Notes under the pieces: generated by a model
What the model was told of the DNA's origin: nothing
Seen by the model: the letters and a program-made list of their open reading frames with translations, nothing else
Databases searched by the model: none
Shown: positions 4,345-51,866 of the stretch, one piece after another
How positions within the stretch are numbered: position 1 is the first letter of the stretch
How the letters are laid out: each line of letters begins with the position of its first letter
From: Escherichia phage LF82-4
Length of the DNA stretch: 64,000 bases
Strand: one strand, 5' to 3'
Sequence record: PV660448
Translations under genes and position numbers: made by a program

Positions 4345-6014
4345 TGATGAGTGATATCGCCACCGATTGGACGATAAGAAACACCAGTTTCTTTATCAGT
4401 TAGTACCCATTTACCAGGATTTTTTGTAATCAGAGTAGCCGTTACAGGTTCTGCTACGTCATAACTAATAGAGCCGTCTTGAAGTACACGGCCCATGTTA
4501 CGTAATTGCTTAGTCAGAAGTTCCATACCTTTATAATATGCGGCTACCGCTTTAAGTGGATTATTCTTGAAATAACCACCTAATGCAATCCAGATAATTG
4601 CCACCGCCAAATGATGATACTCGTTAAACGAACTCATCTTTCCATATTTGTAAATTAATGGATTGATGTTAATAGTCACATTACAAGTTGTTTCATCAAT
4701 AGTAAACTGTCCCCAGGTCGGATTAGCATTGAATTCATCATAACCTGAAACAGCATAAAGCACTTTAGCTTCATCATACAATTTTGGCCCGTAAATCTTG
4801 GTTTCGCCAAAATATCCACGAGGGTCGATAAACTTGACTTCGCCGTTATCAGTAATCATAGTATTACTGAAGTTCGGGTCACCATGAATAACAGAGTACT
4901 GTCCCTGAGAACGATTATGATAACGAATAAGGTGTTCTAAAGCTTGTTTCAGCATTGGCTTCAGACGTCCAATCTTAGTGTAGTTCACATGTGTGATTTT
5001 ACCAAATGAATCAATCAATGGTTGAATACTTTCACAACGATCAATAACTTTCGTATAGAATTCTTTAGTGAAATCACGACGAACAGTTTCAGGACTTACA
5101 AAATACGTGTCTGTGCTGAATTTCAGTGCATCTAAAATTGCATCAACAATTTGTGGACGAGCAAGACTTGATTTGGATTTAATATATTCAAATGCCGGCT
5201 TACCTTTAATGCGTTCCATTTCAAAGTTATTTTCATTAACAGAAACTAACTGAGGAACTGAATCTGATTTCACTTTCAAATACCACGAAATCTCATCTTT
5301 CTGAAGAGCTCGTCCCTGTTCGGTTAATGCGAATTTAGTTACAGTTTCTTCACCAATTTCAACTGCATTAAAACTACGATTAAGTTCACGAACTTCATGA
5401 GCTTTTTCAAGTTTAGGCATATCACCTAAATCAATTAGATTCATAAGCTCTGATTTATTGAATGCGCCGCTGTAAAGGAATTCTACGAAATCACGTCCTT
5501 TGCAGTATTCATGAATTTCCTCATCGGTAGAACCCATATAGAATTCCCAGTCTTTGAACTGATAAATTCCTACAACATTACCACCTGTTGAACCTACGTT
5601 AGTGATATTTTCACCGTCGAAATTATACCGACATTCGTCACCCTTAACATAGATTGCGTTAACATTCCAAGACCATGAACCAAAATCAGGAATAATATCA
5701 CACCAGTTAACAATTACATTATGGCCATCTAAATCTTTGTGTAATTTAGCAAGAGCATAAGCAGAACCATACGCTTCATCAACTGTACGAATAGTCACAT
5801 TGAACCCTTCTTGCTCACAATAAGCTCGAACAGTTTCAGCAAATTTTGAATGAACTACTACAATAATTTCATCTGCGCCAAGGTCAGAATAAATTGTATA
5901 CAAATTGCTCAGAATAGTGTCTTGTTTATAGTTAACAAGCACCTTAGGAATATGATGCGTTATTGGATACAAACGAGTTGCCAGTCCAGCACCAAGAATA
6001 ACAGCTTTTTTCAT
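4329..6014 (-). CDS. bifunctional sugar-1-phosphate nucleotidylyltransferase / APH-type sugar kinase
   Basis: 561 aa; N-terminal LGAGLATRL nucleotidyltransferase signature; C-terminal HGDPNFSN and IDPRGYFG kinase motifs (aminoglycoside/choline-kinase fold); GAGGA RBS. Confidence 0.7.
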   Translation of the reverse strand: MKKAVILGAGLATRLYPITHHIPKVLVNYKQDTILSNLYTIYSDLGADEIIVVVHSKFAETVRAYCEQEGFNVTIRTVDEAYGSAYALAKLHKDLDGHNVIVNWCDIIPDFGSWSWNVNAIYVKGDECRYNFDGENITNVGSTGGNVVGIYQFKDWEFYMGSTDEEIHEYCKGRDFVEFLYSGAFNKSELMNLIDLGDMPKLEKAHEVRELNRSFNAVEIGEETVTKFALTEQGRALQKDEISWYLKVKSDSVPQLVSVNENNFEMERIKGKPAFEYIKSKSSLARPQIVDAILDALKFSTDTYFVSPETVRRDFTKEFYTKVIDRCESIQPLIDSFGKITHVNYTKIGRLKPMLKQALEHLIRYHNRSQGQYSVIHGDPNFSNTMITDNGEVKFIDPRGYFGETKIYGPKLYDEAKVLYAVSGYDEFNANPTWGQFTIDETTCNVTININPLIYKYGKMSSFNEYHHLAVAIIWIALGGYFKNNPLKAVAAYYKGMELLTKQLRNMGRVLQDGSISYDVAEPVTATLITKNPGKWVLTDKETGVSYRPIGGDITHQWERI

Positions 6015-6871: not shown

Positions 6872-9583
6872 TCAAAAATCGAACATATCGAAGAGAGATG
6901 CTTTCTTCTCGTAATCGAGTTTCGCTGCTGATGTGAATCCTTCAAGTGGTTTAATAAATGTCTTCTCAAGGAGAACAGTGTAGTCCATCCAATGAAGTAC
7001 GTCGTCTTTAATTAAATCTGTGATTTCAGTACCAGAAGGCCATGCGATACATTTATCACCGAATGGGTTTCCTTCACGTAAAGGCAGAACATATACTTTT
7101 TCACCTTCTACAACTTGTGGAGCATCAATATTACCTTTGATAGCTCGGTTATATGTCAGAATTCCACGAATATGGAACGGACATTTAGGACCAGGGAATC
7201 CACCAACGTCATATTTAGCAATGTTATTCGCAGAAGATACCGACGCGATGCTAATATAATTCAATTGACGGAATTCTTTTTCAAACTCTTTAAAATATTC
7301 TTGTAATGATTCTTCACCTTCTTGAAGCATACGGCGAATACATTCTTTAAGAGCTTTCTGTACTGCTTTAGGGGTCGAAGATTTCTGTGTTTCGAGACCC
7401 ATGATTTTGAGTTTAGGCTCAGCGTATCTGGTTCCTTCCATATCCCACACGTTTAATGCATAACGTTTCTTACCAGTCCAGAATCCGCCAATACCTTTAG
7501 AACCGAGTGGAGGACCAGCGATAGCTTCTCGGTCCATGAACATTAAGTGTTGTTTATTGTTCATGTATTCACACATTTCACGGAAACCTCTATCAATAGC
7601 CGGTTCCATACGTTCACGAGCGAACTTATCTAAGAAGTCTACCCAATGGTTGGTATCACGGAATTTAGATTCACCAACCTTATCAATAATTTTATCTGCA
7701 GATACGTAAATAGAGTCTGTATCACCATAAAGAACGAAAGCTTCACCTTCTGTACCACAAACTTCGTTCAGATATTCATTAACTTTACGTTCAATCCACT
7801 GTAAAGCCATTTGCCCGAATGTTGTGATTGCAGTAGCATTACGCAAATCATAATAACGGAACCAAACGTTTCCAAGTGCACCATAAAGTGAGTTGATGAG
7901 CAATTTACGGTTAATCTGTGCAGTCATACCTGCAACTTCAGTACGTTGAGCTCTAAACAACATTTCATTAAGAGATTTAGCAGACAACTTTTTAATCTTT
8001 TCTTTAATCTCGTCAGTGAAGTCAAAACGATAATCAACATCTAATGGTTCATCAACAGAAAGATTAGGATTATGTAAGGCTTCTTTAATTATTTCACCAT
8101 TACGTTGAGCTGCAAGCATGTAACCTTTATGTTCTTTACGTTGATTAAAGACCTTAGTGATTTCAGTTGGAACTACACCATCACGGTCTTTATAATACAT
8201 CATGCCGTTAGGAGAGCAACTGTACACATCTGAAGGACGTTCAGCGATTGCGTTAATATAATCATGCAGTGGAGCTACTTTAAACGTTCCTGCTATTGTT
8301 TCCGGGCTAATATTCACTTGGCGAATAATACTTGGATACAGGGATGTAAGGTCGAAACTCATTACATATTTGTATCGATTTGGAATAGGTTCCTTAACAA
8401 AAGCACCGGGATAAGGTTGAACCGGGTGAGAACGACCTTGTGGAATCACCTTGCTCTGCTCTTTAAGGCTATTAAAAATAATAGCATCCCATGTTTTAAT
8501 TGGGCTAAACACAGATTGAATCTGTATCTTAGCATAATAACCCATGTCCAAACTCAAGTTGATGAACTGACGCTTAGCATCAATTTGCAATACACGATAC
8601 ACGTCGATAATGTTATAAGAAATATACCGTTGGTGATTGCTTTCACGAAGCTTAGAAATAGGGCCGTCATATTTCAGTTTACCAACGTTCAATTCAAATT
8701 CTGAAATGTAATCCAGAGAATACGACGGTTGATTGGTAAAAGAGAATTTTTTGTAAAGGTCGATATAATCAAGAACAGAGATACCGAACAATGTAATGAT
8801 TTCACGAGAACCATACATGTTTTCGATAACTTTAACACGAGTTTTACGATGTGGTGATAAACGTTTCGCAGTAGATTCGCCAAAAATATTCTTGATTCGG
8901 TTATACACATATGGAATATCAAATGACTCAACGTTCCATCCAGTCAAAATGACAGGAGTTTTCTGTTGCCAGAAGTTGAGATATTCCATCAACAATTCTT
9001 TTTCGTTATCGAACGGCATATAAATGATTTTATCGATAATTTCAGATGGAACTTCATCACCGCCTTGTTCTTGAAGCTTAGCCGCAATTTCGATAGACCA
9101 TTCTTCTACATTACCATACGGAGAATTCAATAGATCAAATACGTAGAACCTGTCGTCAATTGAGTCATAATGGGTGATAGCATCAATCGGATGTTTTGCT
9201 TGTGACGGCTCAGGGAACCCATCCGGAGATGTTACTTCGATGTCGAAGTTAGCCACACGAATTTTTGTATGGTCGTATTTGATTTCATAGTTATAAGTGT
9301 CAGACAAATACGCCAATTTGAAATCGTCCATGCCGAGTGCTTCAAGTCCGATATCTTCCATGCGTTTAATCCATTGGGAGGCATCACGCATATTAGCGAA
9401 CAACTTACGAGTACACGGCTTACCGTAGATATCGAAATATTTCGTAGCCTGACTTTCTGGGCAATGAGCAAACAATGATGGTTTATATTCTACTTCACGA
9501 GTACATTCACGGCCATTAGAATCGATGTAACGTTCAAAAATTGAATCACCAATCTGTTCAACCGTTAAGTAAAATTCTTTCAT
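6872..9583 (-). CDS. 43: DNA polymerase (family B)
   Basis: 903 aa; N-terminus MKEFYLTVEQIGDSIFERYIDSNG... and exo/pol motifs (FDIEV, YGDTDS) match RB69 gp43 as recalled. Confidence 0.97.
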   Translation of the reverse strand: MKEFYLTVEQIGDSIFERYIDSNGRECTREVEYKPSLFAHCPESQATKYFDIYGKPCTRKLFANMRDASQWIKRMEDIGLEALGMDDFKLAYLSDTYNYEIKYDHTKIRVANFDIEVTSPDGFPEPSQAKHPIDAITHYDSIDDRFYVFDLLNSPYGNVEEWSIEIAAKLQEQGGDEVPSEIIDKIIYMPFDNEKELLMEYLNFWQQKTPVILTGWNVESFDIPYVYNRIKNIFGESTAKRLSPHRKTRVKVIENMYGSREIITLFGISVLDYIDLYKKFSFTNQPSYSLDYISEFELNVGKLKYDGPISKLRESNHQRYISYNIIDVYRVLQIDAKRQFINLSLDMGYYAKIQIQSVFSPIKTWDAIIFNSLKEQSKVIPQGRSHPVQPYPGAFVKEPIPNRYKYVMSFDLTSLYPSIIRQVNISPETIAGTFKVAPLHDYINAIAERPSDVYSCSPNGMMYYKDRDGVVPTEITKVFNQRKEHKGYMLAAQRNGEIIKEALHNPNLSVDEPLDVDYRFDFTDEIKEKIKKLSAKSLNEMLFRAQRTEVAGMTAQINRKLLINSLYGALGNVWFRYYDLRNATAITTFGQMALQWIERKVNEYLNEVCGTEGEAFVLYGDTDSIYVSADKIIDKVGESKFRDTNHWVDFLDKFARERMEPAIDRGFREMCEYMNNKQHLMFMDREAIAGPPLGSKGIGGFWTGKKRYALNVWDMEGTRYAEPKLKIMGLETQKSSTPKAVQKALKECIRRMLQEGEESLQEYFKEFEKEFRQLNYISIASVSSANNIAKYDVGGFPGPKCPFHIRGILTYNRAIKGNIDAPQVVEGEKVYVLPLREGNPFGDKCIAWPSGTEITDLIKDDVLHWMDYTVLLEKTFIKPLEGFTSAAKLDYEKKASLFDMFDF

Positions 9584-31250: not shown

Positions 31251-32231
31251 TTATTTCAGTAAAGTTACTTCAGAGATTTCCTCCCAACCATCTTTATCAG
31301 TTGAAATAAAATCTGCCACATAAAGAGCCGTACGTAATGATACATTGCGAAGACGAGACACGTTAGCCTTCATCCAGGACAATGCTTTGTACGTTTCAGC
31401 ATTAGTCAAGCCACGTTTCTGCATCATGTCAGTAGATAATATTACATCTTCAACTCGAACCATAATCTCTTCATTAGAGTGTACTCCAAGGTCGAGATAC
31501 ACTGAACGAGATACTAAAGCTTGAAGGTGCGGAGCAAGTTTCGAACCGCGTTCTAACTCTTTATCGATATCAACGTTTGTAATGAAAACAATAGTACCTT
31601 CAAACTCAAATTCTTTATCGATACCCTTATCATCAAGATAAGATGATGCAGTGCTCCAGCAAACTTTGCGTTTATCATCAGTATCTAATGCTGCTTTAAG
31701 AAGGTTCAAGATATCTATATCCGAGAATACATCAACATCGTCGATTAAGAGAACGCTGTCTGCATCACGGTTGAGCCAAAGTTGTTCGTAAAGGCCAATA
31801 CCAGAGATTTTACCATTAATGCTTTTGTATTTGATGAAACCATTATCATTAGCATTATTAAGCGCTTTATCCAGAGAATACGTCTTACCAATACCAGCTG
31901 CACCTGAAATAATGAGTGAACGAATTTTGCCATCGATAATGCCATTCGTCATCATGTTCATTACTTTAAAGCGTTTGTTGATACGAGTTTTCATATCTTC
32001 AGTGCTTTCAACAACTGCAACTGGTGTCGTCTCAACTCCTTCCATTACGATGTCTGATTTGAAGACCCATACTCCACGTTCAGAACCATCAATCATAACG
32101 AAAATTTTACCGTCACCTAAGTGGGAACATTCAGGATTAAGCTTTGCTGGGAACCATGTCTTTGTGGCAACATAAGAACCGGAGATTTCATTATTACGAT
32201 AGATACCTTTTTTGATTTGAACGTTGAACAT
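31251..32231 (-). CDS. P-loop ATPase (AAA-like)
   Basis: 326 aa from ATG 32231 (GGAG RBS); Walker A GAAGIGKT, Walker B LLIDDVD. Confidence 0.6.
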   Translation of the reverse strand: MFNVQIKKGIYRNNEISGSYVATKTWFPAKLNPECSHLGDGKIFVMIDGSERGVWVFKSDIVMEGVETTPVAVVESTEDMKTRINKRFKVMNMMTNGIIDGKIRSLIISGAAGIGKTYSLDKALNNANDNGFIKYKSINGKISGIGLYEQLWLNRDADSVLLIDDVDVFSDIDILNLLKAALDTDDKRKVCWSTASSYLDDKGIDKEFEFEGTIVFITNVDIDKELERGSKLAPHLQALVSRSVYLDLGVHSNEEIMVRVEDVILSTDMMQKRGLTNAETYKALSWMKANVSRLRNVSLRTALYVADFISTDKDGWEEISEVTLLK

Positions 32232-32261
32232 TTTATTCTCCAAATTTACTCATTTCGTTTT

Positions 32262-32299: not shown

Positions 32300-32329
32300 T
32301 ACTTTTTAAAAATATTTTGACCCCCTAAA

Positions 32330-32343
32330 GGGCCCGAAGGCCC
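32330..32343 (-). terminator. GC hairpin with UUCG loop after 329-aa gene
   Basis: minus strand GGGCC-UUCG-GGCCC followed by UUUAGGGGG; 3 nt after stop. Confidence 0.4.
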
Positions 32344-32346
32344 TTA

Positions 32347-33336
32347 TCATTTATAGTATGAATTGTGGTTTTCTAAGTAGACTTGCTCAAGGAAGTCATC
32401 CCAGAAACTCATATCTACTTTTTGCTGCATACCATTCTTGGCAGCTTGTTCTGACGCATGTTCAACTTGGTCAACGATATCTTCTAGGAATTCTTGTACA
32501 GTTTTAAACGTATGTTTACCAAGCTTAACATCGAGAATAAATGGAGCATCCTGAAGCGGGTAAACCAGGTCGCCGGTTTTGTAAATTTCTAAGAGCTGAA
32601 GTCCACCACGGCATGCGTGACTCAATGCTTTCCAATCAATGCCTTCATTGGCTTCTGCCTTACGAGCACGTTCACCGTAGTTCTCTTCAAGTTTAACCAG
32701 GATGGCATTGAACTCTTTGTTAGTTAACGTATCTTGGAATTTACGGTCTAACAGACTATAGAATGTTTGCTTACCTGTTTTCTCGTTTTCAGTTTCAACC
32801 CATGAAGCAAATTCACCTATAGGCAAAACATTCTTCATATGTGATAAACGAATTACTGCACCGTTATCAAAGTATTGTCCCCATTCATTAGAACGTTTAA
32901 GGGCTTGACGAAGAACAGCCAGCCGAGAACCCTTGACACCGTATTTAGAAGCTTGCTTACGGACATACCCTAAATAAGATTTCATGTTAGTGGTATAGAA
33001 ACGAGACCTGTTATCTTGAATATACTTCCATACATCAGGCAAATCAGATTTAACTACTAGACTTTGTGGAGTGTGAAGCATATCTAATGCGACGGTTTCA
33101 CCATCCGCAGCTAGTTTAAAGAAATATTTGAGACTATATAACTCATGGTCTACGTCGTCTTTTGTGTTCTTAGAAGATGTGTTATTCGTGTTCTTGCTCA
33201 TATGTTCTTTAACGTTACCGGTCAAGATATCACGAGCATGAGGGACATAAATTTCTTTAAAATCGACGTCAGACTCAGGAGTAGACGTTCCATAAAGGTG
33301 GCTACCAAAGTAGCCTTTCATAATTGTTTTCATCAT
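32347..33336 (-). CDS. predicted nucleotidyltransferase (Pol-beta fold) with C-terminal domain of unknown function
   Basis: 329 aa; N-terminal GS-x13-DVD motif (FGSHLYGTSTPESDVDF) typical of the Pol-beta nucleotidyltransferase superfamily. Confidence 0.6.
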   Translation of the reverse strand: MMKTIMKGYFGSHLYGTSTPESDVDFKEIYVPHARDILTGNVKEHMSKNTNNTSSKNTKDDVDHELYSLKYFFKLAADGETVALDMLHTPQSLVVKSDLPDVWKYIQDNRSRFYTTNMKSYLGYVRKQASKYGVKGSRLAVLRQALKRSNEWGQYFDNGAVIRLSHMKNVLPIGEFASWVETENEKTGKQTFYSLLDRKFQDTLTNKEFNAILVKLEENYGERARKAEANEGIDWKALSHACRGGLQLLEIYKTGDLVYPLQDAPFILDVKLGKHTFKTVQEFLEDIVDQVEHASEQAAKNGMQQKVDMSFWDDFLEQVYLENHNSYYK

Positions 33337-33806
33337 TTAGCCTTATATTCAAGAGTAGGACAGACTTTTTCTTTATGAGCTTTAAGGTATTCACCTATTA
33401 ATGATTTCTTACGTTCAATAGGCTCAAGTCCATTTTTAATTCGTTCTTGGTTTTGTGCAATGAGCTCAATTTCTTTATAATATTTTCTGTCGTTATATTT
33501 GTCTAACAACCAAGACGGACCAATTACCAACCCGGTAGCAATAAAAGCCATGACTGCTACAATTAAAATGCCTACACCAATTGAGGCTGGAACTAATGTC
33601 CATAGACTGCTAAAAACAAAGAATTTAGTTAAAATTTCCTGGCCAATGATTGTGACTGCTGCTAAAATCGCAAATCCAATAATTGAAGCAGCCAATACCG
33701 GGATTAACGTTTTCCAAAAATAAGCACACAACGTTTTAGGACGATTCCATGTACTATTGAATGCAGCATAAATTTTATAGTGCCAAGAGTTTTCATTGAT
33801 AATCAT
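33333..33806 (-). CDS. polytopic membrane protein (157 aa)
   Basis: three hydrophobic helices. Confidence 0.55.
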   Translation of the reverse strand: MIINENSWHYKIYAAFNSTWNRPKTLCAYFWKTLIPVLAASIIGFAILAAVTIIGQEILTKFFVFSSLWTLVPASIGVGILIVAVMAFIATGLVIGPSWLLDKYNDRKYYKEIELIAQNQERIKNGLEPIERKKSLIGEYLKAHKEKVCPTLEYKAK

Positions 33807-33815
33807 AATAATTCC

Positions 33816-34352
33816 TTATTTCAAAGTCGGGATAATAGAATCAAGATAAGCTTTAAGAGCAACTGCTTCGTCTTTGGTAAACGTAGTAATATGTGAACGT
33901 AAATCATCAATTTGACGAATAGTTACGACATCACCATCTTCATAAGAATTCCGTACATCCAACGTCGTGGTATAGTTTAGAGCTACCGGATTAATAATAA
34001 AAGCACCACGTCCTTTACCCCATTGAAGTTTAGCCTTTTCGGGTGTTTCAGGTGTTTCAGAATTCAAGAATTCTTTAACCTTATCAACGAATGTTTTCCA
34101 ATTATCAATAGAAAGACACATATCTTCAGTTTCGATATTAGCACCACGTTCCCCACGATAAAAACGAACTTGTAGCTCATTGCCAATACTAGTTACGCTA
34201 TTAAATCCTGAAGGAGCATAAGATAAAATCTCTTCCAATTCCATAGGAAGAATAGTAATACTATCATCTTCTTGAGTGAAAAGATAGGTATTACCGAGTT
34301 TTTCGATAGTCAAGTCACCGAACATTTCAGTTGTTTCAATTACAGTTTTCAT
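33816..34352 (-). CDS. hypothetical protein (178 aa)
   Basis: ATG at 34352; track start 34364 is TTG. Confidence 0.55.
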   Translation of the reverse strand: MKTVIETTEMFGDLTIEKLGNTYLFTQEDDSITILPMELEEILSYAPSGFNSVTSIGNELQVRFYRGERGANIETEDMCLSIDNWKTFVDKVKEFLNSETPETPEKAKLQWGKGRGAFIINPVALNYTTTLDVRNSYEDGDVVTIRQIDDLRSHITTFTKDEAVALKAYLDSIIPTLK

Positions 34353-34353
34353 A

Positions 34354-34533
34354 TTATTCACCAATTAAAGTTTCAACAAAATTCACCAAATCATTCTGAC
34401 GAGCATCAACTTGCTTTTCATAGAAGTCTCCGCTATCATTTACTGCGTGATAAGCTACATCATTTAAATCAGTATCGGCTTCACGCAAGTCATGGATAAG
34501 GTCCATCAATTTATTAGCTTGTTCACGGGTCAT
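34354..34533 (-). CDS. small protein (59 aa), not in ORF track; paralogue of 34912-35091
   Basis: MTREQANKLMDLIHDL...; stop overlaps next ATG; N-terminus similar to MTRKEKISKLMFLIEEY of the other small gene. Confidence 0.4.
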   Translation of the reverse strand: MTREQANKLMDLIHDLREADTDLNDVAYHAVNDSGDFYEKQVDARQNDLVNFVETLIGE

Positions 34534-51794: not shown

Positions 51795-51866
51795 TGGCCC
51801 TGGCTGGTTTCGATCCAGCTACCTATCAGTTATGAGCTGACAGCTCTCCCATTGAGCTACAGGGCC
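51795..51866 (-). tRNA. tRNA with anticodon CAU (Met or Ile2-type)
   Basis: 72 nt cloverleaf folded by hand: acceptor GGCCCUG/CAGGGCC, D-arm GCUC/GAGC, anticodon stem GUCAG/CUGAU with loop CUCAUAA, T-arm GCUGG/CCAGC; no encoded CCA. Confidence 0.8.

What the first reader, a model, noticed from the sequence alone, without database searches (positions are those of the whole stretch)
32347..33336. Pol-beta-fold nucleotidyltransferase of unknown specificity
The N-terminus has the G-S-x(9-13)-D-x-D signature (FGSHLYGTSTPESDVDF) of the nucleotidyltransferase superfamily that includes CCA-adding enzymes, antibiotic NTases, MNT toxin-antitoxin components and cGAS/CD-NTases. It is followed by about 230 residues I cannot assign and a GC-hairpin terminator. 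In a phage this could modify host or phage RNA/protein, or interfere with nucleotide-signalling defences.
Basis: partly seen in the sequence, partly recalled or inferred. Interest (0 to 1): 0.55.

Follow-up and report, generated by a model that had tools for sequence, protein, structure and literature searches.

The report
T4 NrdC.11-type RlaP RNA nucleotidyltransferase
The gene is real and is the RB69-group copy of phage T4 nrdC.11, an already catalogued member of the RlaP family of enzymes that add one or two nucleotides to broken RNA ends; its likely job is helping the phage repair host-cut tRNA, so it is a known kind of gene whose role in the phage has not been tested.

Summary
Window 32347-33336 on the minus strand is a 329-aa ORF with G11-S12-x10-D23-x-D25, followed 2 nt after the stop by a C(UUCG)G hairpin. 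The window is an RB69-like T4-type phage, 100% identical to Escherichia phage LF82-1, where this gene is annotated "nucleotidyltransferase". It is the ortholog of T4 nrdC.11.

It passes Pfam's RlaP threshold (PF10127, 49.4 bits against a cut-off of 23) and matches PHROG 388 (E 4e-126). An MSA-based AlphaFold model (pLDDT 94.5) shows an NTase core plus a helical C-terminal domain. The nearest solved folds are HalB, 3c18 and kanamycin NTase, at fold level only.

A 2025 preprint shows that Pseudomonas RlaPs add 1-2 NMPs to RNA 3'-OH ends. It already lists T4 NrdC.11 as an RlaP of unknown function.

What I add:
- This subfamily matches canonical RlaP significantly only over residues 1-132.
- It carries a conserved stretch of about 95 residues (133-228) and a DWKAxSHAxR motif.
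- Bacterial homologs lie in Hen1-Pnkp, RtcB, RtcA and Ro60 neighbourhoods.
- In 21 of 80 bacterial loci a canonical RlaP is directly adjacent.
- The phage encodes Pnkp, Rnl1 and Rnl2 elsewhere in its genome.

Best reading: an accessory tRNA-repair enzyme. Already known; interest is low to moderate.

The parts
32347..33336 (-). CDS of 329 aa (38.0 kDa, pI 6.4): ortholog of T4 nrdC.11, RlaP-family (PF10127) Pol-beta-superfamily nucleotidyltransferase
   Evidence: ORF. RB69 annotation names it nrdC.11. It is 100% identical to the LF82-1 'nucleotidyltransferase'. Pfam RlaP E 6.4e-13. PHROG 388 E 3.9e-126. AF2 model pLDDT 94.5.
33259..33309 (-). NTase signature, residues 10-26 FGSHLYGTSTPESDVDF: G11-S12 and the metal-binding D23-x-D25
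   Evidence: Translation. G11 is invariant; S12, D23 and D25 are at least 90% conserved in 145 homologs. It aligns to the GSRAWG...SDYDVR motif of canonical RlaP.
33148..33156 (-). D61-V-D63 at the start of strand 62-68: candidate third catalytic carboxylate. It corresponds to the region of D88 in canonical RlaP.
   Evidence: D61 and D63 are at least 90% conserved. Strand assignment comes from the model. The hhalign register has a one-column uncertainty. Which Asp is the third ligand is inferred, not shown.
33082..33084 (-). D85 (motif ALDMLH), a conserved acidic residue that aligns with the invariant E110 of canonical RlaP
32653..32940 (-). Residues 133-228, a subfamily-specific segment: helix 136-155, three-stranded beta-meander 177-201, helix 206-228. 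It carries conserved G136, R138, Y220, G221 and R223, and is not alignable to canonical RlaP.
   Evidence: Secondary structure. Conservation. The hhalign match to canonical RlaP stops at residue 132. Pfam covers only residues 7-152.
32608..32637 (-). DWKALSHACR (residues 234-243), the most conserved C-terminal motif (R243 invariant). It is a possible counterpart of K-x-Y-x-Y-A-L-R in canonical RlaP.
   Evidence: This motif served as the search pattern that recovered 376 viral and 156 genomic relatives. The C-terminal alignment is collinear but not significant (E 0.04).
32328..32345 (-). C(UUCG)G hairpin 2 nt after the TGA stop, overlapping a second in-frame TAA. Probably an mRNA 3'-end stabiliser or weak terminator between nrdC.11 and nrdC.10.
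   Evidence: It is conserved after RB69 nrdC.11. There is no adjacent U-tract on the coding strand.
33333..33336 (-). ATGA overlap of the nrdC.11 start codon with the stop codon of the upstream membrane-protein gene (33333-33806), suggesting translational coupling
   Evidence: RB69 shows the same 4-nt overlap.

Best explanation
The gene encodes the RB69-group ortholog of T4 NrdC.11, a Pol-beta-superfamily nucleotidyltransferase of the RlaP family (RNA-ligase-associated Pol-beta, PF10127). By analogy with the characterised Pseudomonas RlaPs, it most likely uses two divalent metals (Mn2+ preferred in those enzymes). The metals would be held by D23, D25 and a third carboxylate (D61 or D63). The enzyme would transfer one or two untemplated NMPs from NTP to the 3'-OH of a broken RNA. 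In the infected cell the probable substrate is the 5' half of a host tRNA whose anticodon loop has been cut and trimmed by a nucleotide-excising anticodon nuclease such as RloC. The proposed sequence is: phage Pnkp removes the 3' phosphate, NrdC.11 replaces the lost nucleotide, and Rnl1 or Rnl2 seals the 3'-OH/5'-P nick. That would make it an accessory, conditionally useful counter-defence arm of the T4 tRNA-repair pathway. SHOWN here: the ORF, the motif, family membership, the fold, the RNA-repair gene context of bacterial homologs, and the presence of Pnkp, Rnl1 and Rnl2 in the same phage. INFERRED: the activity on RNA 3' ends, the tRNA substrate, and the link to RloC-type nucleases.
For: - Family: Pfam RlaP scores 49.4 bits against a cut-off of 23. 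144 of 145 diverse homologs also hit RlaP. Comparison with a profile of canonical RlaPs gives probability 95%, E 3.7e-8.
- Biochemistry of the family: PfRlaP and PaRlaP add 1-2 NMP to RNA 3'-OH, do not act on DNA or protein, and partly restore aminoacylation of a tRNA that lacks one anticodon-loop nucleotide. T4 NrdC.11 is placed in RlaP cluster 5 (bioRxiv 10.64898/2025.12.29.696909).
- Context of this subfamily in bacteria: on an Asticcacaulis plasmid the order is Hen1, Pnkp, NrdC.11-like (37.6% identity), canonical RlaP. In Deferribacter, RtcB lies 2.5 kb upstream. Of 80 genomic loci, 32 have an RNA-repair-type neighbour: 15 have Hen1, Pnkp, RtcB or an RNA ligase, and 21 have a directly adjacent canonical RlaP. 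Pfam families among the immediate neighbours are RlaP 15, PNKP_ligase 4, Ro60-vWA 3 and RtcA 2.
- The same phage genome (LF82-1) encodes Rnl2, Pnkp and Rnl1. The product of an RlaP reaction (3'-OH) is chemically compatible with 5'-P ligases.
[quoted passage not shown] Restoration of such nucleotides by RlaP in phages has been predicted (PMC7824862).
- The gene is dispensable on laboratory hosts: a T4 nrdC.11-mobD.3 deletion is viable (PMC9825161). That fits an accessory counter-defence role.
Against: - No experiment on any phage NrdC.11 was found.
- Significant similarity to the characterised RlaPs covers only residues 1-132. The C-terminal roughly 200 residues, including a conserved segment of about 95 residues, are not significantly alignable, so substrate specificity may differ.
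- In the phage the gene is not next to any RNA-repair gene. Its neighbours are proteins of unknown function. Among 27 distant viral loci only 3 have an RNA ligase within 6 kb.
- Bacteria often keep both this type and a canonical RlaP side by side, which argues that the two are not functionally interchangeable.
- The RlaP tRNA-repair model is itself still a proposal from a preprint; untemplated addition restores the correct nucleotide only in a fraction of molecules.
Confidence: 0.6

Rival explanations
1. It is an RNA 3'-end nucleotidyltransferase, but its target is not the trimmed anticodon loop. It might rebuild damaged tRNA 3' (CCA) ends attacked by host toxins, or it might tail host or phage RNAs to alter their stability.
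For: Pseudomonas RlaPs labelled full-length tRNA- and rRNA-sized species as well as tRNA fragments in total E. coli RNA, and they show little NTP specificity. Two of 27 distant viral loci have a PolyA_pol-head (CCA-adding type) enzyme nearby. The subfamily-specific segment could confer a different RNA specificity.
Against: In PfRlaP assays the preferred end was the 5'-half 3' end of a cleaved-tRNA mimic, and reactivity of the 3'-half (acceptor) end dropped when the halves were annealed. Bacterial homologs associate with nick-sealing machinery (Pnkp/Hen1, RtcB) rather than with CCA enzymes. There is no similarity to class I or II CCA-adding enzymes.
Confidence: 0.2
2. It nucleotidylylates a protein or a small molecule. 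One possibility is AMPylation of a host HEPN-type RNase toxin, as MntA antitoxins do. Another is modification of a metabolite, as aminoglycoside NTases do.
Against: The MntA score is 12.9 bits against a cut-off of 60. TM-scores to KNTase are only 0.3-0.4 at about 10% identity. RlaPs did not label E. coli proteins. There are no PADLOC hits. Gene context in bacteria is RNA repair, not toxin-antitoxin.
Confidence: 0.07
3. It synthesises a nucleotide or oligonucleotide signal, or a decoy, that subverts a host defence. For example it could make HalB-like oligodeoxyadenylate that keeps the Hailong effector off, or it could interfere with CBASS.
Against: Identity to HalB is only 14% with rmsd 4.2 A, the level of similarity expected between any two minimal NTase families. 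There are no CD-NTase, cGAS or PADLOC profile hits. RlaPs need a 3'-OH RNA acceptor and stop after 1-2 additions.
Confidence: 0.04

Closest known systems
T4 NrdC.11 (synonym tk.-11; '38.9 kDa protein') and its orthologs in T4-type phages
   Same: Same gene. RB69 annotates the syntenic, near-identical ORF as nrdC.11 'similar to T4 AAD42629'. Tequatrovirus copies are about 78% identical over the full length. Order is conserved: membrane protein, nrdC.11, nrdC.10. The NTase domain (COG3541) was noted as early as 2006 (PMC1524935).
   Different: Nothing of substance. Unlike T4 there is no mobD homing-endonuclease gene next to it, and unlike RB69 there is no ORF102c between nrdC.11 and nrdC.10.
Canonical RlaP (PF10127), e.g. 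Pseudomonas fluorescens/aeruginosa RlaP in rtcB-rlaP-rtcA operons
   Same: It passes the Pfam gathering threshold. It shares the G-S...D-x-D core, a further conserved Asp on the next strand, and the acidic residue D85 (E110 in canonical RlaP). The layout is an N-terminal NTase domain plus a C-terminal helical domain. Bacterial homologs of this subfamily sit in RNA-repair operons.
   Different: It is about 60-80 residues longer. Significant profile similarity covers only residues 1-132. It has a conserved additional segment (133-228) with a beta-meander and its own C-terminal motif DWKAxSHAxR. It falls in a separate SSN cluster (cluster 5 against cluster 1a). In bacteria it frequently co-occurs with a canonical RlaP rather than replacing it. 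Its activity is untested.
Hailong HalB, kanamycin nucleotidyltransferase ANT(4') and NTase-like protein 3c18 (nearest solved structures)
   Different: Identity is 9-16% and TM-scores are 0.25-0.4. There is no profile-level sequence relationship. The acceptors differ: dATP oligomerisation for HalB and aminoglycoside for ANT(4').

Membership tests
RlaP (Pfam PF10127, RNA-ligase-associated Pol-beta NTase) | Scores above the curated Pfam gathering threshold | tested here: met
   49.4 bits against a cut-off of 23, E 6.4e-13, residues 7-152 to HMM positions 23-148 of 249. 144 of 145 homologs also match.
RlaP (Pfam PF10127, RNA-ligase-associated Pol-beta NTase) | Pol-beta NTase catalytic signature: hG[GS]-x9-13-D-x-D plus a third carboxylate | tested here: met
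   G11-S12-x10-D23-x-D25. D61, D63 and D85 are conserved in at least 90% of homologs. The motifs align with canonical RlaP. Which residue is the third metal ligand is not resolved.
RlaP (Pfam PF10127, RNA-ligase-associated Pol-beta NTase) | C-terminal helical domain homologous to that of canonical RlaP | tested here: inconclusive
   The model has a helical C-terminal domain. However, hhalign is significant only for residues 1-132. The C-terminal halves align collinearly but without significance (E 0.04, probability about 1%).
RlaP (Pfam PF10127, RNA-ligase-associated Pol-beta NTase) | Gene neighbourhood with RNA ligase or RNA-repair genes | tested here: inconclusive
   Not met in this window: neighbours are of unknown function, and Pnkp, Rnl1 and Rnl2 lie more than 80 kb away in the same genome. 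Met for bacterial homologs of the subfamily: a Hen1-Pnkp operon, RtcB nearby, and 32 of 80 loci with repair-type neighbours.
RlaP (Pfam PF10127, RNA-ligase-associated Pol-beta NTase) | Adds 1-2 NMP to the 3'-OH of RNA (Mn2+-stimulated) | not testable with these tools
   Shown only for the P. fluorescens and P. aeruginosa enzymes.
CCA-adding enzyme / poly(A) polymerase (PF01743) | Match to the PolyA_pol head-domain profile | tested here: not met
   No hit at E<=1.
MntA-type MNT antitoxin (NF047752) | Scores above the NCBIfam equivalog cut-off; small (about 100-140 aa) NTase paired with a HEPN toxin gene | tested here: not met
   12.9 bits against a cut-off of 60, touching only residues 9-26. 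The protein is 329 aa and has no adjacent HEPN gene.
cGAS/DncV-like CD-NTases (CBASS) | Profile or fold match to a CD-NTase | tested here: not met
   No Pfam or PADLOC hit. No CD-NTase among the top PDB fold matches.
Hailong HalB NTase | Close structural or sequence relationship; adjacent HalA-type effector | tested here: not met

The most novel reading that the evidence does not exclude
The NrdC.11-type enzymes may be a functionally distinct branch of RlaP rather than a simple equivalent. They carry a conserved extra module of about 95 residues (helix, beta-meander, helix). In bacteria they are kept side by side with a canonical RlaP inside Pnkp/Hen1-type repair operons. This suggests a different or complementary specificity: a defined nucleotide or a defined RNA end, a second step after the canonical enzyme, or a heteromeric complex with it. 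T4-type phages have retained only this branch, which might then give higher-fidelity restoration of excised anticodon nucleotides than the random addition seen with Pseudomonas RlaP.
Probability: 0.2. Interest if true: 0.5.

Novelty: already known. Interest (0 to 1): 0.25.

Why it matters
T4 tRNA repair by Pnkp and Rnl1 against PrrC is the textbook phage counter-defence. RloC-type nucleases were proposed to defeat it by removing a nucleotide. An RlaP enzyme conserved across about 1500 sequenced T4-type and related phages would be the phage's next move in that arms race. This idea is already in the literature as a prediction, so the finding adds no new concept. The phage enzyme has never been assayed, however. 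The subfamily-specific module and the pairing with canonical RlaP in bacteria give a concrete and inexpensive biochemical question to address.

Tried and rejected
- The single-sequence AlphaFold run was useless (pLDDT 42). It was redone with a 145-sequence alignment.
- Sequence and profile searches of the PDB found nothing real. The PfRlaP crystal structure is not in the copy searched.
- The afdb50 fold library was unavailable.
- The Burroughs & Aravind 2016 paper that defined RlaP is not held, and the preprint has no text supplements. I could not check whether the pairing of NrdC.11-type and canonical RlaP is already described.
- NrdC.10 (AAA-type ATPase, immediately downstream) was considered as a functional partner and rejected. 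It accompanies nrdC.11 only in 32 of 80 viral loci, all close T4 relatives, and in 0 of 80 bacterial loci.
- Neighbourhoods of distant viral homologs are heterogeneous and give only weak support (RNA_ligase 3 and PolyA_pol 2 of 27 loci).
- No second, canonical RlaP was found in the window or in the sampled parts of LF82-1. No Escherichia phage appears among the 80 phage records that carry a canonical RlaP.
- PADLOC gave no defence-system match.
- Small ORFs on the plus strand inside the gene (49, 51 and 77 aa) were treated as chance ORFs.

Full report
**1. The observation**

Window 32347..33336 holds a 329-aa ATG-initiated ORF on the minus strand. Residues 10-26 are FGSHLYGTSTPESDVDF, i.e. G11-S12-x10-D23-x-D25, the Pol-beta nucleotidyltransferase signature.

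The start ATG overlaps the TGA stop of the upstream membrane-protein gene as ATGA. The gene ends TGA-TAA. Two nucleotides after the stop comes AAGGGCC-UUCG-GGCCCUU at 32328-32345.

That hairpin is unique in the window (0.03 expected by chance). It recurs just downstream of RB69 nrdC.11. It lacks an adjacent U-tract on the coding strand. I therefore read it as a C(UUCG)G stability hairpin or weak terminator; such hairpins are known in T4 intercistronic regions (from my own knowledge, not checked here). A sigma-70-like promoter match follows at 32298-32271, ahead of the next gene.

**2. Identity of the gene**

- The 1.9-kb region is 100% identical to eleven Escherichia phage LF82-x records and 97% identical to RB69 (Mosigvirus).
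- RB69 annotates the gene as nrdC.11, "similar to T4 AAD42629; synonym tk.-11". LF82-1 annotates it as "nucleotidyltransferase".
- Pfam gives RlaP (PF10127), "RNA repair pathway DNA polymerase beta family", at 49.4 bits against a gathering cut-off of 23, covering residues 7-152.
- PHROG 388 "nucleotidyltransferase" matches the full length at E 3.9e-126.
- NCBIfam offers only a sub-threshold touch of MntA on the motif. PADLOC gives nothing.
- All 120 closest clusters in the 5.8-billion-protein collection carry a precomputed PF10127 hit. Many are mis-named "thioredoxin", an error propagated from the nrdC gene name.
- The family is large: 3245 50%-identity clusters at E<=1e-3 and 745 at E<=1e-30, nearly all about 310-350 aa and matching end to end.
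- Homologs occur in 1520 of 50,697 phage records: T4-type phages of Escherichia, Klebsiella, Aeromonas, Acinetobacter, Vibrio and others.

**3. Structure**

A single-sequence AlphaFold run failed (pLDDT 42). With a 145-sequence alignment (A1) the model reached pLDDT 94.5 and pTM 0.87. Its elements are:

- an alpha/beta NTase core, with strands 3-10, 24-31, 45-49 and 62-68;
- helices up to residue 155;
- a three-stranded beta-meander at 177-201;
- five further helices to the C-terminus.

Conserved positions (at least 90% of 145 homologs):

- G11, S12, D23, D25 and K27;
- N57, D61 and D63;
- D85;
- Y124, Q128, K131 and Y132;
- G136 and R138;
- Y220, G221 and R223;
- D234-W-K-A-x-S-H-A-x-R243;
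- K271.

These comprise a catalytic acidic cluster and many basic and aromatic residues of the kind expected to line an NTP/RNA cleft. I could not inspect the model coordinates, so the identity of the third metal ligand (D61 or D63 against D85) remains inferred.

**4. What is known about the family**

- RlaP was defined by Burroughs and Aravind (NAR 2016; cited, paper not held) from its linkage to RNA ligases.
- Iyer et al. state that RlaP is the most prevalent such NTase in jumbo phages, that it tracks RNA ligases, and that it is predicted to restore nucleotides removed by RloC-type nucleases before ligation (PMC7824862).
- A December 2025 preprint (Carruthers, Fatma and Huang, 10.64898/2025.12.29.696909) characterises P. 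fluorescens and P. aeruginosa RlaP:
  - they add one or two NMPs (any NTP, also dATP) to RNA 3'-OH ends;
  - they do not act on DNA or protein;
  - they prefer Mn2+ or Co2+;
  - they prefer the 5'-half end of a cleaved-tRNA mimic;
  - they partly rescue aminoacylation of a tRNA lacking one anticodon-loop nucleotide.
- The crystal structure in that preprint is an N-terminal NTase domain plus a C-terminal helical domain.
- The same preprint names T4 NrdC.11 as an RlaP "of unknown function" in SSN cluster 5, separate from the enzymes studied, which are in cluster 1a.
- The NTase domain (COG3541) in nrdC.11 orthologs was noted in 2006 (PMC1524935).
- T4 tolerates a nrdC.11-mobD.3 deletion (PMC9825161).
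- I found no experiment on the phage protein.

**5. What I could add**

(a) Relationship to canonical RlaP. Comparing the NrdC.11-type profile (A1) with a profile of 14 canonical RlaPs (A4) gives probability 95% and E 3.7e-8, but only over residues 1-132. The C-terminal halves align collinearly: DWKAxSHAxR falls opposite K-x-Y-x-Y-A-L-R, followed by matching P-rich and K-G-x-E stretches. That alignment is not significant (E 0.04). Residues 133-228 (helix, beta-meander, helix, with conserved G136, R138, Y220, G221, R223) therefore look like a subfamily-specific module. Homology of the remaining C-terminus is plausible but unproven.

(b) Gene context.

- In the phage, the neighbours are a membrane protein, MobD.1 (y05I-like), the NrdC.10 AAA-type ATPase and other proteins of unknown function.
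- NrdC.10 accompanies nrdC.11 only in close T4 relatives (32 of 80 viral loci) and never in bacteria (0 of 80).
- Distant viral loci are heterogeneous: RNA_ligase in 3 and PolyA_pol in 2 of 27 loci.
- Bacterial homologs of this specific subfamily are informative.
  - On an Asticcacaulis plasmid the gene order is Hen1, Pnkp, NrdC.11-like (37.6% identity, E 3e-45), canonical RlaP.
  - In Deferribacter, RtcB lies 2.5 kb upstream.
  - Across 80 genomic loci recovered with the DWKAxSHAxR pattern, 32 have an RNA-repair-type neighbour: 15 have Hen1, Pnkp, RtcB or an RNA ligase, and 21 have a canonical RlaP within 400 nt.
  - Pfam scanning of the immediately flanking ORFs ranks RlaP (15), PNKP_ligase (4), Ro60-vWA (3) and RtcA (2) at the top.

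(c) The phage's own repair genes. The phage that is identical to the window over the 1.9-kb stretch compared encodes Rnl2, Pnkp and Rnl1 elsewhere in its genome. These provide the 3'-phosphatase, 5'-kinase and 5'-P ligase activities that are chemically compatible with an RlaP product.

(d) Distribution of the two RlaP types in phages. Canonical RlaP occurs in 80 phage records, mostly jumbo phages of Pseudomonas, Brevundimonas and Caulobacter, and in no Escherichia phage. No second RlaP is present in the window or in the sampled parts of LF82-1.

**6. Interpretation**

The most likely function is untemplated addition of one or two nucleotides to RNA 3'-OH ends, as an accessory step of phage tRNA repair. 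It would be aimed at anticodon nucleases that remove nucleotides. RloC's wobble excision was proposed precisely as a way to defeat T4 repair.

Family membership and fold are shown. The activity, the substrate and the biological target are inferred.

Rivals, in decreasing order of likelihood, are:

- another RNA end as target, such as CCA-end repair or RNA tailing;
- protein or small-molecule nucleotidylylation, as in MNT or KNTase enzymes;
- synthesis of a signalling or decoy oligonucleotide, as in HalB or CD-NTases.

The last two rest only on generic fold similarity. They are disfavoured by the profile results and by the bacterial gene context.

**7. Verdict**

The gene is nevertheless already annotated and already placed in a named, partly characterised family, so the finding is "already known".

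Residual interest lies in two points. The phage enzyme has never been assayed. The NrdC.11-type branch also differs from the characterised RlaPs: it has an extra conserved module, and in bacteria it is paired with a canonical RlaP. It may therefore have a distinct specificity. Interest 0.25.

Noticed in passing
window 32347-33336 and its homologs in public records: Many GenBank and UniRef records name nrdC.11 orthologs 'thioredoxin' (e.g. Shigella phage ESh15/ESh27, Escherichia phages AV110 and FL31). This is an annotation error propagated from the neighbouring gene name nrdC; the protein is an NTase.
   Followed up: partly
L086:6001-7790, and L087-L166 (e.g. L138, L160, L148, L110): In bacteria and archaea the NrdC.11-type NTase is often followed directly by a canonical RlaP paralog (21 of 80 loci within 400 nt). 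Several of these pairs lie inside Hen1-Pnkp operons. This suggests two non-redundant NTases in one RNA-repair system.
   Followed up: partly
window 31251-32243 (-): NrdC.10 is a 330-aa protein with a Walker A motif (GAAGIGKT), weak AAA_22, AAA_16 and STAND hits, and a weak C-terminal HTH_37 hit. PHROG 1250 lists it as unknown function. It lies downstream of nrdC.11 only in close T4 relatives.
   Followed up: partly
window 33333-33806 (-) and 33816-34364 (-): The upstream genes are a 157-aa multi-pass membrane protein (PHROG 944, RB69ORF104c), whose stop overlaps the nrdC.11 start as ATGA, and MobD.1, which matches Pfam 'y05I-like putative transcription factor' N- and C-terminal domains.
   Followed up: partly
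window ~4764-5150 and ~7017-7652 (from LF82-1 98963-99349 and 101216-101851; offset 94199): Genes annotated phosphoheptose isomerase and arabinose-5-phosphate isomerase sit between the DNA polymerase gene and the dNMP-metabolism genes. From my own knowledge these are probably part of the RB69-group arabinosyl-hydroxymethylcytosine DNA modification pathway; this was not checked here.
   Followed up: no
window 51795-51866 (-): A single tRNA-Met (CAT) gene is the only tRNA in the 64-kb window.
   Followed up: no
phage records OL964745.1 (T4, 159,752 bp) and NC_041936.1 (ECD7): One T4 record retains only the last roughly 12% of nrdC.11, which looks like a genome-reduced deletion derivative. In ECD7 the gene matches in two pieces covering 67%, so it may be disrupted or a pseudogene.
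   Followed up: no
L087:6141-7331 (MAG 'Bacilli bacterium', probably phage-derived contig): The closest 'genomic' homolog (52% identity) is flanked by a TET-associated glycosyltransferase (PF20691). This points to a contig from a phage with modified DNA binned into a MAG.
   Followed up: no
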